Shown one piece after another: positions 27,176 to 32,264 of a stretch of 64,000 nt of DNA. The stretch comes from Dictyostelium discoideum. Its lineage: Eukaryota. Made by a program: the position numbers and the translations under genes. How positions within the stretch are numbered: the first letter of the stretch is position 1; every line of letters starts with the position of its first letter. The notes under the pieces were generated by a model. That model did no database searches, had not been told where the DNA came from, and worked only from the letters and a program-made list of their open reading frames with translations. Where the stretch lies: assembly GCA_000004695.1 (NCBI GenBank), contig CM000150.2, positions 512,001 to 576,000 of the forward strand, written 5' to 3'.

Positions 27176-27289
27176 GTGAGCCAAATAAAAAAAATAAAAT
27201 TAGATACTAATGAAAATAAAATTATACCCAAATATATTTGTCTTAATATTATTGAGCCATTGATTAATTATTTATTAACAAATAGAAAA

Positions 27290-27345
<56 letters not shown>

Positions 27346-29233
27346 TAATAATAATAAAAATTTTGAAATTAAAAATTATTATTACAATTTTAATGAAATT
27401 TTAAAATTATCATTAGTATCAAAAGATTGGTTTAATATAATTTCAAATTTAATTGGTAATAATATTATTGATAATAATATTTTAGAATATTGGATTAATG
27501 GTATTATTGATGGTTCAGATATAAGTTCACCACCACCAGTTAAAGCTGAATTTATAACATATGATTTTAAAAAGAAAAATTCAAAAGGTGATGATATCGA
27601 TATAAAATTTAATATGAAAATTAATAAAGAATTTTCAATTATTAAAATTGATAAAAATATTGTAAAAGATTATTTTAAAAATCAAGTTTTATGTTTAGAT
27701 TGTTTATTATATGATTATCTAATTGAACTTGCCGAATTGGAAAATCAAGGTAAACTACATTACAGAAAGATTCTAATTAAAATGGATTACTTTTATAGTG
27801 ATTTTTATGATTTGTATTTTGAGGGTGGGAATCCAAATAGCAAGTTAATTAAAAAAGGTGGATTGGTAGATTTAACTACACCATCATCACCATCATCATC
27901 ATCTGATAGTAGTAATTGTATTATTGAATTTACATTACACGATTTAATTACCATGGATGATATTGATGATGGATTTTGTGCGGTGTATTACCATGGTGGG
28001 GATGAAAAGAAATTAAATATTAATAATATCAGTTATTTCGGGTCACATCAAGATTACGATTATAAAGTTTTTCAAAAAGTTTTAAAAAACATTACATCAA
28101 AAAATATTAAATTTAATATTGGAAATGATGATGAAGATACTCATGCAGATTTTTCAGATTTTTTCAATAGTCAACTTAATGGACAAGTCGAGTCAATTAA
28201 AATCTATTCAGATTTCGTTGAACCATTTCATCTATTAAATGTAAATCAATTAAATAATTTACATACACTTTCAATACCAATCCATTTTCATGAAATCATT
28301 GGTATGTTATTAGAATTTAATGAAGATTCACAATTACAATGTAGAAATAATGAAATATTATCAAAACACCAGGATAGCATAATCAAAGATTGGGAATCAA
28401 TGATTGAATCTTTAAAATCATGTAGACCCTTAAAAAATTTAGAAATTTCAAATCCATGTTTTGACTCTCACTGTATCTATAATTTCATGAAAGAATCACT
28501 TGATTACAAAAATAAAGATACCACCCCCCATGATGATGACAATGAAGATGAAAAAGAAAATGAAGATGAAAATGAGGATTTAAAAAATTGTTTATATTAT
28601 TTAAAAATGTTTTCAAATGGTATTAAATCATTATTATCTTCATCATCGTTGGAATATTTTAAAATTAAAAATTGTGGTATTGTAATTTGTAATGACACAT
28701 TCTCTGAATTATCTAATAATAAATCAATTAAAACTTTAGTATTGGATGACGAATTTTCATCGTGCAAACAAATGAATGATGGTGATGAATTTTATGAAAT
28801 CCATTATTTTAATATTATTCAATATTTATTTGAAAATATATTCAATTCACCAAATTCAAATATCAGACACTTTAAATTCTCATCAAAATATTCAAATTCA
28901 TTACAACCAATATTTAAATCAATTTTAAATAATTTGAATACAATTCAATTATATTCAATAACAATAAAAATTACTCAAAATATTTTAGAATCAACTTTAG
29001 ATGAAATTATTAATCTTTCATATAAATTCAAGGAAAATCAAAAACAACGACAACATAAGAACTTATGTGAATTTAAAATAAGTGTGATTAATTCAAAAAC
29101 TAAAAAATCTGAAAAAGATAATTCAAAAACTGATAAATCAAAAAAATATCAATCATTATTAAATGATAAAATTAATGGAAATTCTTGCCATTTCTCTATT
29201 TCCGTTTTAAGCTACTCAAACAATGATTTCTAA
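27176..29233 (+). CDS. F-box-like/LRR-like protein, paralog A, about 685 aa as read. The 5' end is unresolved: the open frame begins at a GTG and there is no in-frame ATG until about aa 203, so a small upstream exon is likely.
   Basis: F-box-like IPKYICLNIIEPLINYLL...(poly-N insert)...LKLSLVSKDWFNIISNLI. LRR-like C-terminal half (LHTLSIPIHFHEI, LKNLEISNPC, IKTLVLDDEF). About 60% identical to the neighbouring gene at 30006..32264. Confidence 0.5.
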
Positions 29234-30005
29234 AAAAAAAAACAAAAACAAAAAAAAAAAAAAAATAATAAATAAATAAATAAATAAATATAAAATAAAG
29301 ACAAGAATTTATAAATTCAATTTTTTTTTTTTTTTTTTTTTTATTAATAAATCAATTTTATTTTTGGAAAATATCTTTAAATAGCAAAAAAAAAAAAAAA
29401 AAAAAAAAAATGAAAGTAAAATATAGATTTTAATATTTTTCATATGCTTTTGGAAAATAACTTTAAATAGAAAAAAAAAAAAAATTATTTAATTTTGATG
29501 AATTTTCATAAAAAAAAAAAAAAGATTTTTTTTTTTAAAGATTTTGAATTTTGATTAACAAACATATAAACAGATATTTTTAACAAAAAAAAAAAAAATA
29601 AAAAAAATAAAAAAAAATTAAAAATAAAAAAAATAAAAAATACAAATGGCCAGATTAGTCTTTGAAATTTTTTCGATTTTTTTTATTTTTGTTCAATTTT
29701 TTCAACGAATATCTGTTCGGGTATTTAAAAAAGATTTTTTTTGTTTTATTTTTTTTATTTTTTAATATTTTTTTTTCTTTGTGTTTTTTTTTTGTCGTTT
29801 TTTTTTTTTTTATTTTTTTTTTTTTTGGTATATGTCAAAGTTGAAAACAAACTCTCTTGTGCTACTTAAATAATAAACACTCAAAAAAAAAAAAATAAAA
29901 AATAAAAATAAAAATAAAAATAAAAAAAAAATTTTAAAACCCCTTTCACCATTAAAATAGAAAATAAAAAATTGATGAACCCTCCACAAAATTGCCAATT
30001 TAGAG

Positions 30006-30249
30006 ATGAATGATAGTTTAAAATTTAGAAATATATTAGTAAATATGGATTACAATAAAAGAGAATTTAAAAATTTATTAAATTCAAATTATAAAAAAAT
30101 AAAATTAGATAATAATAATAATAATAATAATAATGATACTATAACCATACCAAATTATATTTATAATAATATTATTGAATCAATAGTTAATTATTTATTA
30201 TTAAATAAAAAAAATAATATTAATAATTGTAATAATAATATTAATAATT

Positions 30250-30313
<64 letters not shown>

Positions 30314-32264
30314 TTATGAAATTAAAAACTACTATTATTATATAAATGAAATTATAAAATTATCATTAGTATCAAAGGAATGGTATAAAATCATATCAAA
30401 TTTAATAACCAATAATATCATTGACAATAATAGAATAGAATATTGGTTCAATGAACCATTATTACCAACTATTTCACCACCACCACCACAACCAGATACT
30501 ATTTCATATAATTTTAGAAAGAAATATTCAGAAAGCAGTGAAATTAAATTAAATTTTAAAATGAATATAAATAAGGAATATTCAATTATTAAAATTAATA
30601 ATACTAATAATAGTAATAATGATAATAATATTATAAAAGATTATTTTAAACAACAAGTATTATGTTTAAATAAATTAACATATGAAGAATTAGAAGAAAT
30701 TTCCAAATTAAAGATGAATAATAGTTTAAAATTTAGAAAGATATTAGTAAATATGGATTATAATAAAACAGAATTTAAAAATTTATTAAATTCAAATTAT
30801 AAAAAAATAAACAGTTCATTTGATTTATCAAATCTACCTTCATCCAATAATAATATAAATAATAATAATAATAATAATAATAATTGTAAAGTTGATATTA
30901 CTCTTCATAATTTCTCATTATTAAATGATAATATTGATATTAGTAGTAGTAATGATAATAATGATGATAAAATAGAATCAAAATTATATATAAATAATAT
31001 TAGTTATTTCGGAACAAATAATTGTGATAAGATATTCAATATATTAAATCATATTAAATCAAAGAATATTAAATATATAAATAATGATAATGATGACGAT
31101 ATTATTCATATGGATTTTTCAGGACTGTTTAATCAAGATATTAATGGACAAGTTGAATCAATTAAAATTTATTCAGATTTCGTTGAACCCTATCATCTAT
31201 TAAATGTTAATCAATTAAATAATTTACATACACTTTCAATACCAATTCAATTTCATGAAATCATTGAAATTATGTTAGGAAATGATGAATCACAATGTAG
31301 AAATGATGAATTTCTATCACAATTTAGAAATGATATTATCAATCATTGGGAACTAATGATTGAATCATTAAGTACTTGTAAATTATTAAAAAATTTAACA
31401 ATTTCAAAAGCATGTCCATATACACGTTGTATTTATAACCATTTTAGTGATGATGATGAATTTAATTATTATGATAGTAGTTATAGTGAAAATAATAGTT
31501 TTTACAATCATGATGATAATGATGACAATGATGATGATGATGATGAAGATGATGAAGAAGATGATGATGATGAGGATCATGAGGATCATGATGATACAAA
31601 AAAGATTTTAAATTATTTAAAAATGTTTTCAAATGGTATTAAATCATTATTATCTTCATCCTCTTCATCATTGGAATATTTTAAAATCAAGAATGGTGGT
31701 ATGGTAATTTGTAATGATTTATTCTCTGAATTATCTAATAATAAATCAATTAAAACTTTAGTATTGGATGACAATTTTAAAACATTTGATGATGGCGGTG
31801 GTAGTGGTAGTGGTAATGATCATAGTAAATTCAAAGATCAAGAATTCTTTAAAAAGTTTTATTTTAATACTATTCAATATTTATTTGAAAATATATTCAA
31901 TTCAACAAGTTCAAATATTAGACATTTTAAATTCTCTTCAACATATTCAAATTCATTACAACCAATATTTAAATCAATTTTAAATAATTTAAATACAATT
32001 CAATTATATTCAATAACAATAAAAATTACTCAAGATATTTTAGAATCAACTTTAGATGAAATTATTAATCTTTCAAATAAATTCAATCAAAATCAAAATC
32101 AAAATCAACAACCACCACAATTTAAAAATTTAAATGAATTTAAAATTTATGTAATTAAAAAATCAAAAATTGATAAAACAAAACAATATCAATCATTATT
32201 AAATGATAAAATTAATAATGGTTGTCATTTTTCAATTTCCGTCAAACATTATTTTGATAGATAA
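30006..32264 (+). CDS. F-box-like/LRR-like protein, paralog B, 752 aa. The N-terminal roughly 35-aa motif is duplicated internally.
   Basis: ATG at 30006. F-box-like IPNYIYNNIIESIVNYLL...LKLSLVSKEWYKIISNLI. The N-terminal MNDSLKFRNILVNMDYNKREFKNLLNSNYKKI recurs as MNNSLKFRKILVNMDYNKTEFKNLLNSNYKKI at about aa 238. The C-terminal half (INGQVESIKIYSDFVEPYHLLNVNQLNNLHTLSIPIQFHEII...) is nearly identical to paralog A. Confidence 0.6.

What the first reader, a model, noticed from the sequence alone, without database searches (positions are those of the whole stretch)
27176..32264. Tandem pair of divergent F-box/LRR-like paralogs, one lacking an obvious start codon and one with an internal duplication of its N-terminal motif
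Both genes carry an F-box-like helix pair split by a poly-Asn insert (IP.YI...II...NYLL...LSLVSK(D/E)W..IISNLI) and a strongly conserved LRR-like C-terminal half. Some stretches there are more than 85% identical at nucleotide level, e.g. around 28930-28990 versus 31990-32050. Paralog B repeats its first 35 residues at about aa 238. Paralog A's frame is open from a GTG with no upstream ATG, so it needs an unrecognised 5' exon or it has lost its start. This pattern suggests birth-and-death evolution of a substrate-adaptor family.
Basis: partly seen in the sequence, partly recalled or inferred. Interest (0 to 1): 0.5.

Follow-up and report, generated by a model that had tools for sequence, protein, structure and literature searches.

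The report
Tandem split-F-box LRR paralogs, Dictyostelium
Two neighbouring Dictyostelium genes belong to a fast-evolving, amoeba-specific family of probable ubiquitin-ligase adaptors, some of whose members are already known to associate with Skp1; in this window one of the two has a single-base change that destroys its start codon.

Summary
Two same-strand intronless ORFs, A (27176-29233) and B (30006-32264), are 53% identical paralogs. A starts at GTG, and B repeats its N-terminus internally.

**Missing start of A.** No 5' exon is needed. Two other D. discoideum assemblies have ATG at exactly the window's GTG. That A-to-G change is the only difference inside either CDS against a 99.7%-identical assembly. 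So this is a very recent start-codon loss or a base-call error.

**B's N-terminus.** A 115-nt copy of an internal segment (30697-30811) sits at 29989-30103. It replaced the ancestral start.

**3' third.** It is homogenised between A and B (pS 0.22 versus 0.60 mid-gene), which suggests gene conversion.

**Fold.**
- The F-box call is only borderline by sequence, and the N-terminal models are unreliable.
- However, paralogs of this family appear in a published Skp1 co-IP interactome with the same loop-split F-box and an LRR-like receptor domain.

**Distribution.** The family has at least 60 proteins. It is confined to group-4 Dictyostelium, sits in tandem clusters and includes many fragments.

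**Verdict.** These are new members of a known kind, of modest interest.

The parts
27176..29233 (+). Paralog A coding sequence, 685 codons plus stop, single exon
   Evidence: ORF list. The same 685-aa single-exon gene is called in GCA_054883475.1. dN/dS is 0.19 against the ACTFIW-strain ortholog.
27176..27178 (+). GTG at the position of A's ancestral ATG (start-codon substitution, A to G at 27176)
   Evidence: L001 and L002 both read ATG here. It is the only difference within either CDS between the window and L001. It also aligns with Met1 of DDB_G0271418 (MSTKKKIKTD versus SQIKKIKLD).
27137..27139 (+). In-frame TAA upstream of A; no ATG between it and the GTG
   Evidence: Direct reading of the sequence.
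27614..27616 (+). First in-frame ATG of A (Met147). Initiation here would remove the whole F-box-like region
   Evidence: Six out-of-frame ATGs precede it.
27221..27277 (+). A, F-box-like helix 1 (IIPKYICLNIIEPLINYLL, aa 16-34)
   Evidence: Family alignment. Predicted helix 19-35/40. Pfam F-box-like covers it once the loop is removed.
27278..27385 (+). A, loop between helix 1 and helix 2, containing the (AAT)24 poly-Asn run
   Evidence: TRF 27290-27361. A loop of at least 24 aa sits here in every family member. The same loop is described in PMC9485057 Fig. S3.
27386..27457 (+). A, F-box-like helices 2-3 (NFNEILKLSLVSKDWFNIISNLIG)
   Evidence: Pfam F-box positions 17-38/43 at 13.6 bits. W85, V81 and S82 are invariant or near-invariant. 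The only PDB profile hits align here, to the FBXO42 and SKP2 F-boxes.
28043..29218 (+). A, irregular RNI-type leucine-rich-repeat solenoid (aa ~290-681)
29089..29146 (+). A-specific 30-nt tandem duplication in the C-terminal tail (SKTKKSEKDN / SKTDKSKK)
   Evidence: TRF. Absent from B in the alignment.
29234..30005 (.). 772-nt A/T-rich spacer between the paralogs
   Evidence: No tRNA or Rfam hit.
30006..32264 (+). Paralog B coding sequence, 752 codons plus stop, single exon
   Evidence: ORF list. The identical protein is called in GCA_054883475.1. dN/dS is 0.31 against the ACTFIW ortholog P0001.
29989..30103 (+). B, derived 5' copy of the 115-nt duplication. It starts 17 nt upstream of the ATG and supplies B's present start codon and first 33 residues
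   Evidence: blastn 108/115 identical. The boundaries are the same in L002, and orthologous copies are closer (2-3 differences) than paralogous ones (6-8), so the duplication predates the strain split.
30697..30811 (+). B, ancestral internal source of the duplication (…ISKLKMNNSLKFRKILVNMDYNKTEFKNLLNSNYKKI)
   Evidence: A and other paralogs have homologous sequence at this position (LHYRKILIKMDY…; LKYRKIISKIFY…). Both copies end in AAAAAAATAAA, which the ancestral N-terminal KKIKLD codons share.
30144..30203 (+). B, F-box-like helix 1 (TIPNYIYNNIIESIVNYLLL)
   Evidence: Alignment.
30204..30338 (+). B, helix 1-helix 2 loop with a long poly-Asn run
   Evidence: TRF 30109-30310 and alignment.
30339..30410 (+). 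B, F-box-like helices 2-3 (YINEIIKLSLVSKEWYKIISNLIT)
   Evidence: Pfam F-box 15.7 bits on the native protein and 21.1 bits with the loop removed, against a cut-off of 20.5.
31008..32255 (+). B, LRR solenoid homologous to that of A, interrupted by an acidic (GAT)n insert at 31510-31595
   Evidence: Alignment to A. TRF.
28538..29230 (+). A side of the homogenised 3' tract (partner in B is 31542-32261; core 28787-29026 versus 31842-32081)
   Evidence: Nucleotide identity 83-97% and pS 0.22 (core 0.11), against pS 0.60 mid-gene, Fisher p 3e-7. The same codon is used at 86% of identical residues here versus 62% mid-gene. The tract is shared by both strains.

Best explanation
A and B are tandem, intronless paralogs of a family found only in group-4 Dictyostelium.

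**Architecture**
- An N-terminal F-box-like motif. Its helix 1 is separated from helices 2-3 by a loop of 24 to about 60 residues, which is poly-Asn in A and B.
- A poorly modelled linker.
- An irregular RNI-type LRR solenoid.

**Most likely function (inferred, not shown for A or B)**
They act as substrate receptors of SCF ubiquitin ligases. The split F-box docks on Skp1, which bridges to cullin-1 and Rbx1. The LRR surface selects substrates.

**Evolutionary events at this locus**
1. In B's lineage, a 115-nt internal segment was copied to the 5' end. The junction lies in an 11-nt A-rich microhomology. The copy replaced the ancestral Met-Ser-x-x-Lys-Lys-Ile start and added about 29 residues. 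This predates the split from the ACTFIW lineage.
2. The 3' third, and probably the F-box region, have been homogenised between A and B by gene conversion.
3. In the window's source, a single A-to-G change turned A's ATG into GTG. The rest of the gene is intact. If the base is real, this allele is a very young null or strong hypomorph: a gene at the 'death' step of birth-and-death turnover.
For: **Shown here**
- Paralogy.
- ATG in two other assemblies at the same base; this is the only CDS difference from a 99.7%-identical assembly.
- Purifying selection on both genes between lineages, dN/dS 0.19 and 0.31.
- Limits and polarity of the duplication.
- Synonymous-site mosaic.
- LRR fold.
- F-box families are the only Pfam families hit repeatedly. 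B and DDB_G0277447 reach 21.1 and 20.5 bits, and A reaches 15.8 bits, once the loop is removed. Seven of 17 loop-excised N-termini hit PF00646 at E<=0.01.
- The only two PDB hits of the N-terminal profile are F-boxes aligned in register.
- Family census and taxonomic range.

**From the literature**
- PMC9485057 Fig. S3 lists DDB_G0271408, DDB_G0347826, DDB_G0271202, DDB_G0271228, DDB_G0271418, DDB_G0271434 and DDB_G0288687 as Skp1 co-IP interactors.
- It predicts for them an F-box-like sequence with a loop between helices 1 and 2, and labels most of them 'LRR+'.
- Three of these are in my homolog list: P0005, P0016 and P0036.
Against: - Neither A nor B was itself in the Skp1 interactome list.
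- Pfam F-box is below the gathering score on the native proteins. With the loop removed it is 15.8 bits for A, against a cut-off of 20.5.
- The full-length family profile finds no F-box or LRR protein in the PDB by sequence.
- AF2 gives the N-terminal 168 residues pLDDT below 50. The N-terminus-only model has mean pLDDT 55 and no Foldseek match.
- The co-IP evidence for paralogs does not prove direct Skp1 binding.
- The GTG could be an error in the source assembly.
- pS heterogeneity could partly reflect codon bias.
Confidence: 0.65

Rival explanations
1. The GTG is a base-call or assembly error in the window's source. A is an ordinary intact gene starting at ATG, and there is no start-loss allele.
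For: - Two independent assemblies read ATG.
- All other 2,057 nt of A are identical to L001.
- Most other window/L001 differences are homopolymer-length or A/T changes in low-complexity DNA. These look technical rather than biological.
Against: - The change is a clean transition in non-homopolymer context (AAAGTGAGCC).
- At least four other clean substitutions separate the two assemblies within 14 kb (26619, 27054, 35755, 38098). The sources therefore appear to be genuinely different strains, and a real SNP is plausible.
Confidence: 0.3
2. The GTG allele is real but still expressed. Translation would start either at the near-cognate GUG, giving low levels of full-length protein, or at Met147, giving an F-box-less LRR protein that could act as a decoy for the family's substrates.
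For: - The ORF is fully intact, and the GTG keeps the A-rich upstream context (AAAGTG) of the ancestral start.
- Near-cognate initiation is established in eukaryotes (general knowledge, not tested here).
- Met147 opens a 539-codon ORF that covers the whole LRR domain.
Against: - Six out-of-frame ATGs lie between the GTG and Met147, which should capture scanning ribosomes.
- GUG is generally a weak initiator.
- There are no expression data.
- An intact ORF says little, because the mutation is too young for decay.
Confidence: 0.15
3. The N-terminal motif is not a functional F-box. The family would be LRR proteins with another role, and the Skp1 co-purification of paralogs would be indirect or would reflect their being SCF substrates.
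For: - Sub-threshold Pfam scores.
- A long obligatory insertion inside the motif in every member.
- The canonical LP is replaced by FQ in the largest subfamily.
- The AF2 models are low-confidence and have no Foldseek match.
Against: - F-box is the only recurrent Pfam hit and the only PDB hit, and it aligns in register.
- The motif sits at the N-terminus ahead of an LRR domain, as in FBXL proteins.
- Seven paralogs were recovered with Skp1, some with two antibodies and at two life stages.
- The same paper accepts insertions between F-box helices in many Dictyostelium Skp1 interactors.
Confidence: 0.2

Closest known systems
Dictyostelium 'LRR+' Skp1 interactors with loop-split F-box-like sequences (DDB_G0271408, DDB_G0271418, DDB_G0271202, DDB_G0271228, DDB_G0271434, DDB_G0347826, DDB_G0288687; Boland et al. 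2022, PMC9485057 Fig. S3)
   Same: - Homologous over the full length: single-sequence E 9e-29 to DDB_G0271418 and profile E 1e-110 to 1e-147.
- The same N-terminal motif …EIL..I.NYLL - loop - NEIL.Y.LVSKKW..IS.
- The same LRR-like C-terminal half.
- The same lack of Pfam domains.
   Different: - A and B, with DDB_G0277447, form a separate subfamily that is about 33% identical to the chromosome-2 cluster.
- This subfamily keeps the canonical (I/L)P at the start of helix 1, where the big cluster has FQ.
- A and B lie as an isolated pair next to glycogen synthase rather than in the large cluster.
- They were not among the proteins detected with Skp1.
FBXL-type SCF substrate receptors (Skp2, FBXL2, FBXL17, COI1/TIR1, MAX2)
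   Same: - An N-terminal F-box-like motif followed by an RNI-type LRR solenoid.
   Different: - No significant sequence similarity.
- The F-box is interrupted by a loop of 24 to about 60 residues between helices 1 and 2.
- About 200 poorly modelled residues separate it from the confident LRR part.
- The LRRs are irregular, carry long low-complexity inserts and match no Pfam LRR model.
Lineage-specific, rapidly turning-over F-box families (C. elegans F-box genes, plant FBX superfamily; PMC8120010, PMC3719486, seen only as titles/abstracts)
   Same: Large tandem clusters, narrow taxonomic range, many truncated or fragmentary copies, and strain-to-strain differences.
   Different: - Different receptor domains and no homology.
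- Positive selection was not demonstrated here. dN/dS between lineages is 0.19-0.31.

Membership tests
F-box domain (Pfam PF00646 / PF12937) | Sequence match to the family profile at or above the curated gathering score | tested here: inconclusive
   - Native A scores 13.6 bits and B 15.7 bits against a cut-off of 20.5. Only profile positions 17-38 are matched.
- With the helix 1-2 loop deleted in silico, A scores 15.8, B 21.1 and DDB_G0277447 20.5 bits.
- Seven of 17 loop-excised family N-termini hit at E<=0.01.
- Only 6 of 56 native proteins hit at E<=0.1.
F-box domain (Pfam PF00646 / PF12937) | Compact, contiguous ~40-50-residue three-helix unit | tested here: not met
   Every member has at least 24 residues between helix 1 and helix 2. 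The loop is about 38 residues in A and about 45 in B, and is poly-Asn.
F-box domain (Pfam PF00646 / PF12937) | Signature residues: (L/I)P at the start of helix 1, a hydrophobic heptad in helix 1, and LV(S/C)K.W in helices 2-3 | tested here: met
   - A has IIPKY…II..LINYLL and LSLVSKDW. B has TIPNY… and LSLVSKEW.
- W85, V81 and S82 are invariant or near-invariant in 56 sequences.
- The motif aligns in register with the FBXO42 and SKP2 F-boxes.
F-box domain (Pfam PF00646 / PF12937) | F-box three-helix fold in a structural model | tested here: inconclusive
   - Helices are predicted at the expected places (19-35, 68-79, 83-94).
- pLDDT is below 50 in the full-length model, and the mean is 55 in the N-terminal model.
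- Foldseek against the PDB gives no match.
F-box domain (Pfam PF00646 / PF12937) | Binding to Skp1 | not testable with these tools
- Indirect support: seven paralogs were recovered in Skp1 co-IPs (PMC9485057 Fig. S3). A and B are not among them.
Leucine-rich repeat, RNI-like superfamily | Alpha/beta solenoid of repeated strand-helix units | tested here: met
   - AF2 residues ~290-681 have pLDDT 70-97 and nine strand-helix units.
Leucine-rich repeat, RNI-like superfamily | Match to a Pfam LRR sequence model | tested here: not met
   No LRR family is listed even at E<=10 for A or B, or at E<=0.1 for any of 56 members.
Dictyostelium split-F-box/LRR+ Skp1-interactor family (DDB_G0271418 group) | Full-length homology to published members | tested here: met
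   - B versus DDB_G0271418: E 9e-29 at 88% coverage.
- The profile of A, B and relatives retrieves DDB_G0271418, DDB_G0271408 and DDB_G0271202 at E 1e-110 to 1e-147.
- In the exhaustive search only 64 representative clusters match. Every hit that carries a source name is from Dictyostelium.
Unitary pseudogene (for paralog A in this window) | A disabling lesion relative to functional orthologs | tested here: inconclusive
   - The start codon is ATG in L001 and L002 and GTG in the window.
- There is no frameshift or premature stop, and the CDS is otherwise identical to L001.
- Whether the base is real and whether GUG is used cannot be decided from the sequence.

The most novel reading that the evidence does not exclude
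The GTG is a real, segregating start-loss allele in a fast-evolving family of SCF substrate receptors. It either removes one receptor from this strain, or initiation at Met147 turns the gene into an F-box-less LRR decoy that protects the family's substrates. The family's tandem expansion, strain-to-strain fragmentation and gene conversion would then reflect diversifying pressure, for example from pathogens or social conflict, as proposed for nematode and plant F-box expansions.
Probability: 0.1. Interest if true: 0.5.

Novelty: new member of a known kind. Interest (0 to 1): 0.28.

Why it matters
**For SCF biology in Dictyostelium.** The work ties a previously unlabelled gene pair to a family whose members already appear, one by one, in the Skp1 interactome. 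It also shows that family to be large (at least 15 genes in AX4 and at least 23 in another strain), confined to group-4 Dictyostelium and rapidly turning over. That is useful when interpreting interactome data and choosing genes for substrate hunts.

**For gene evolution.** The locus gives three neat examples: a start codon replaced by a microhomology-mediated internal-to-5' duplication, a one-base start-codon loss caught before any further decay, and partial homogenisation between tandem paralogs.

None of this overturns current understanding.

Tried and rejected
- **Unrecognised 5' exon for A.** Rejected. Orthologs are single-exon with ATG at the same base. In the window, the only AG just before the ORF (27175-27176) is out of phase with the one plausible upstream mini-exon (ATG 26843, GT 26861).
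- **Whether the window is the AX4 reference, and how AX4 annotates A and B.** Not resolved.
  - Exact-sequence look-ups of A, A from Met147, and B were 'not in the collection'.
  - Encoding-contig look-ups for A, B and ERCC1 returned only GCA_054883475.1.
- **First homolog search.** It was swamped by poly-Asn words and gave only 6 hits. I repeated it with a low-complexity-trimmed alignment.
- **PDB sequence search with the full family profile.** Nothing meaningful.
- **Pfam on distant D. purpureum, D. citrinum and D. firmibasis members.** No significant domain, although UniRef names one 'F-box domain-containing'.
- **AFDB Foldseek.** The library was unavailable.
- **Foldseek of the N-terminal model.** No hits.
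- **Literature search by DDB gene IDs in main texts.** Zero papers. The IDs occur only in a supplement, found through the Skp1-interactome papers.
- **Sheikh et al. 2015 (PMC4288264).** Not held.
- **tRNA, Rfam and tandem-repeat scans of the interval.** Nothing beyond codon repeats.

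
Full report
**Source and setting**

The window is about 16-32% GC, with poly-Asn and poly-Gln coding runs. Exact-protein look-ups place it in Dictyostelium discoideum. Paralog B's protein is encoded on GCA_054883475.1 CM142508.1. The window is not that record, however. Over 14.3 kb they are 99.73% identical.

The differences are 13 substitutions plus a handful of length differences in A/T runs. 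The window is the longer copy at every one of these.

Gene order around the finding:
- RasGEF
- HSP20
- Nop16 (- strand)
- A
- B
- glycogen synthase
- a HEAT/DNAAF5-like gene (- strand)
- a cullin (- strand)
- a ThiF-type E1-like gene (- strand)
- ERCC1
- a large kinase (- strand)

**Observation check**

- A (27176-29233, 685 codons) and B (30006-32264, 752 codons) lie on the + strand, 772 nt apart.
- They are 53% identical over 660 residues, E 3e-154.
- A's frame opens at 27140, after a TAA at 27137-27139, and has no ATG before the GTG at 27176.
- The next in-frame ATG is Met147 at 27614. Six out-of-frame ATGs come before it.
28930-28990 equals 31985-32045 at 96.7%.
- B's N-terminal repeat is real: 29989-30103 versus 30697-30811, 108/115 nt identical.
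- No third family member, tRNA or Rfam RNA lies nearby.

**The missing start of A**

Three observations settle this.
1. In the 99.7%-identical assembly (L001) and in a more distant D. discoideum-labelled strain (L002; coding identity ~96%, dS 0.10-0.14), the orthologous gene is annotated as a single exon. It begins ATG at exactly the base where the window has GTG: …AATAAAATGAGCCAAATAAAA versus …AATAAAGTGAGCCAAATAAAA.
2. This A-to-G change is the only difference between the window and L001 anywhere in the 4.3 kb of A plus B.
3. The position aligns with Met1 of other family members: MSTKKKIKTD in DDB_G0271418 and (V)SQIKKIKLD in A.

No 5' exon is therefore needed. A has a start-codon substitution. 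It is either a very young mutation or a base-call error, and the sequence alone cannot tell which. Between lineages A is under purifying selection (dN/dS 0.19), as is B (0.31). The gene is thus functional in general.

**B's N-terminal duplication**

- The 115-nt 5' copy starts 17 nt upstream of B's ATG. In the internal copy those 17 nt are coding (…ISKLK).
- The copy ends in AAAAAAATAAA. This 11-mer is shared with the internal copy and with the ancestral N-terminal codons (I)KKIKLD that A still has.
- A and the other paralogs have homologous sequence only at the internal position: LHYRKILIKMDY in A and LKYRKIISKIFY in DDB_G0277447. The direction was therefore internal to 5' end.
- The insertion replaced the ancestral ATG-Ser-x-x codons and supplied a new in-frame ATG.
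- The same boundaries occur in L002, and orthologous copies differ by 2-3 nt against 6-8 nt between paralogous copies. The event predates the split of these lineages.

**Mosaic divergence**

Along the codon alignment, A-B nucleotide identity varies sharply:
- 53-66% in the middle, with pS about 0.6;
- 83-97% in the 3' third (28538-29230 versus 31542-32261);
- about 88-90% around the F-box-like region, though part of that stretch is the (AAT)n poly-Asn run.

Supporting statistics:
- Synonymous differences are 0.60 mid-gene and 0.22 in the 3' third, Fisher p 3e-7. In the core 28787-29026, pS is 0.11.
- At identical residues the same codon is used 86% of the time in the 3' third and 62% mid-gene, p 2e-4.
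- The same residues are only about 55% conserved in the next paralog group, so protein constraint does not explain the near-identity.
- In a four-sequence comparison, 368 sites group orthologs and 4 group paralogs within a strain. The most homogeneous 150 nt have only 2 fixed A/B differences in both strains.

The best reading is gene conversion after the duplication and mostly before the strain split. Codon bias may contribute, and I ran no formal multi-strain test.

**What the proteins are**

C-terminal half:
- An AF2 model of A was built on a 56-sequence family alignment. It gives pLDDT 70-97 for residues ~290-681 as alternating strand-helix units.
- NLRP3 and NOD2 score 15-16, ribonuclease inhibitor 13.5, FBXL2 13.9, FBXL17 13.7, COI1 13.6 and Skp2 12.9.
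- No Pfam LRR model matches.

N-terminus, sequence evidence:
- Pfam F-box scores 13.6 bits for A and 15.7 for B, against a cut-off of 20.5. Only the helix 2-3 half of the profile is matched.
- With the helix 1-2 loop deleted in silico, scores rise to 15.8 (A), 21.1 (B) and 20.5 (DDB_G0277447). F-box-like (PF12937) then spans both halves.
- Seven of 17 loop-excised N-termini from diverse members hit PF00646 at E<=0.01. No competing family recurs in more than two.
- A profile of those N-termini has exactly two PDB hits at E<=10. They are the F-boxes of FBXO42 and SKP2, aligned in register, with non-significant E-values of 0.43 and 1.4.

N-terminus, structural evidence (inconclusive):
- Residues 1-168 have pLDDT below 50 in the full-length model.
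- The N-terminal-only model has mean pLDDT 55.
- Foldseek finds nothing.
- A complex with Skp1 could not be modelled with the tools available.

**Family and literature**

- A low-complexity-trimmed profile retrieves 61 proteins. All are 'hypothetical' and have no Pfam domain. They come from D. discoideum and 'cf. discoideum' strains.
- Ten AX4 genes are among them, mostly consecutive IDs DDB_G02712xx-02714xx on the 8.48-Mb contig. A second strain contributes at least 23 genes, most on one contig.
- An exhaustive HMMER scan of 1.84 billion representatives finds only 64 clusters.
- Every hit that carries a source name belongs to D. discoideum, D. citrinum, D. dimigraforme, D. firmibasis or D. 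purpureum. Many of the 64 representatives, mostly short fragments, were not looked up.
- Many hits are short or split fragments, for example the adjacent ACTFIZ_001061/001062 and ACTFIR_010470.
- A third member of the A/B subfamily lies on the same contig as the B ortholog in strain ACTFIW (ACTFIW_007417).

The literature is decisive for function. Boland et al. 2022 (PMC9485057) report the following:
- Fig. S3 lists DDB_G0271408, DDB_G0347826, DDB_G0271202, DDB_G0271228, DDB_G0271418, DDB_G0271434 and DDB_G0288687 as found in Skp1 co-IPs (vegetative and/or slug; one with two antibodies).
- The predicted motif is QDIIDFEILKSIINYL*N.NEILNYILV-SKKWYNF…, with an explicit helix 1-2 loop such as [24 protein letters not shown].
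- Most of them are marked 'LRR+' by Swiss-Model.

Three of these are in my hit list: P0005, P0016 and P0036. A and B, or their AX4 equivalents, are not in that table.

**Mechanism and status of each step**

| Status | Statement |
|---|---|
| Shown | Paralogy; LRR fold (model level); start-codon substitution relative to two assemblies; polarity and age of the duplication; synonymous-site mosaic; narrow, expanded, fragment-rich family |
| Shown in the literature, for paralogs only | Association with Skp1 |
| Inferred | A and B bind Skp1 through the split F-box and present substrates on the LRR surface to SCF |
| Inferred | The GTG allele is a null or hypomorph |
| Inferred | The mosaic is due to gene conversion |

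**Comparison, novelty and score**

The pair are new, uncharacterised members of a family whose split F-box, LRR-like domain and Skp1 association are already published for other members. They form a distinct subfamily with DDB_G0277447 that keeps the canonical (I/L)P. I found no paper that treats the family as a family.

They work like FBXL receptors, but strict membership in the Pfam F-box and LRR families is not demonstrated. Novelty: new member of a known kind. Interest: about 0.28. The evolutionary details are tidy and the family deserves a proper description, but nothing here is surprising for a lineage-specific F-box-type expansion.

Noticed in passing
window 39012-40142 (-) and 42652-44085 (-): A cullin gene (Cullin plus Nedd8-site domains, E 2e-60) and a ThiF-family E1-like gene lie 7-12 kb downstream of the F-box-like pair. 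This is probably coincidental linkage of ubiquitin-system genes. I did not identify which cullin it is.
   Followed up: partly
window 23986-38270 versus L001 (GCA_054883475.1): Every length difference between the window and the near-identical public assembly lies in an A/T run, and the window is the longer copy each time. Several 'SNPs' are A/T swaps in low-complexity DNA. This looks like a sequencing-technology difference, so some apparent variants may be technical.
   Followed up: partly
L002 (GCA_054859355.1, locus-tag prefix ACTFIW) versus window: This strain is labelled D. discoideum. Its orthologs differ from the window by dS 0.10-0.14, and the A-B spacer aligns at only ~80% identity with many gaps. 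That seems high for one species and may indicate a cryptic lineage.
   Followed up: no
window 29089-29146: A has a private 30-nt tandem duplication in its C-terminal tail (SKTKKSEKDN/SKTDKSKK). B and the other paralogs lack it.
   Followed up: no
P0059/P0061/P0068 (DDB_G0269494 subgroup; not in window): This low-complexity-poor subgroup begins MGNQF…, a possible N-myristoylation signal. Its helix 1-2 loop is basic (KNKKKQSFYDIKRHYSKKRFFRY) rather than poly-Asn.
   Followed up: no
P0062 (ACTFIR_012039, 1071 aa; not in window): It contains two family units in tandem, giving three matched stretches to the profile. It is either a read-through annotation of neighbouring cluster genes or a real fusion.
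   Followed up: no
family alignment: In the large chromosome-2 subfamility the canonical F-box LP is replaced by FQ (IFQDIIDFEIL…). Even so, members of this subfamily are the ones recovered with Skp1. The A/B/DDB_G0277447 and DDB_G0269494 subgroups keep (I/L/V)P.
   Followed up: partly
window 25016-25560 (+): The HSP20 gene upstream of the pair is reconstructed as two exons with a GT…AG intron at 25140-25285, giving a 132-aa product. This length matches the gene called in the public assembly.
   Followed up: partly
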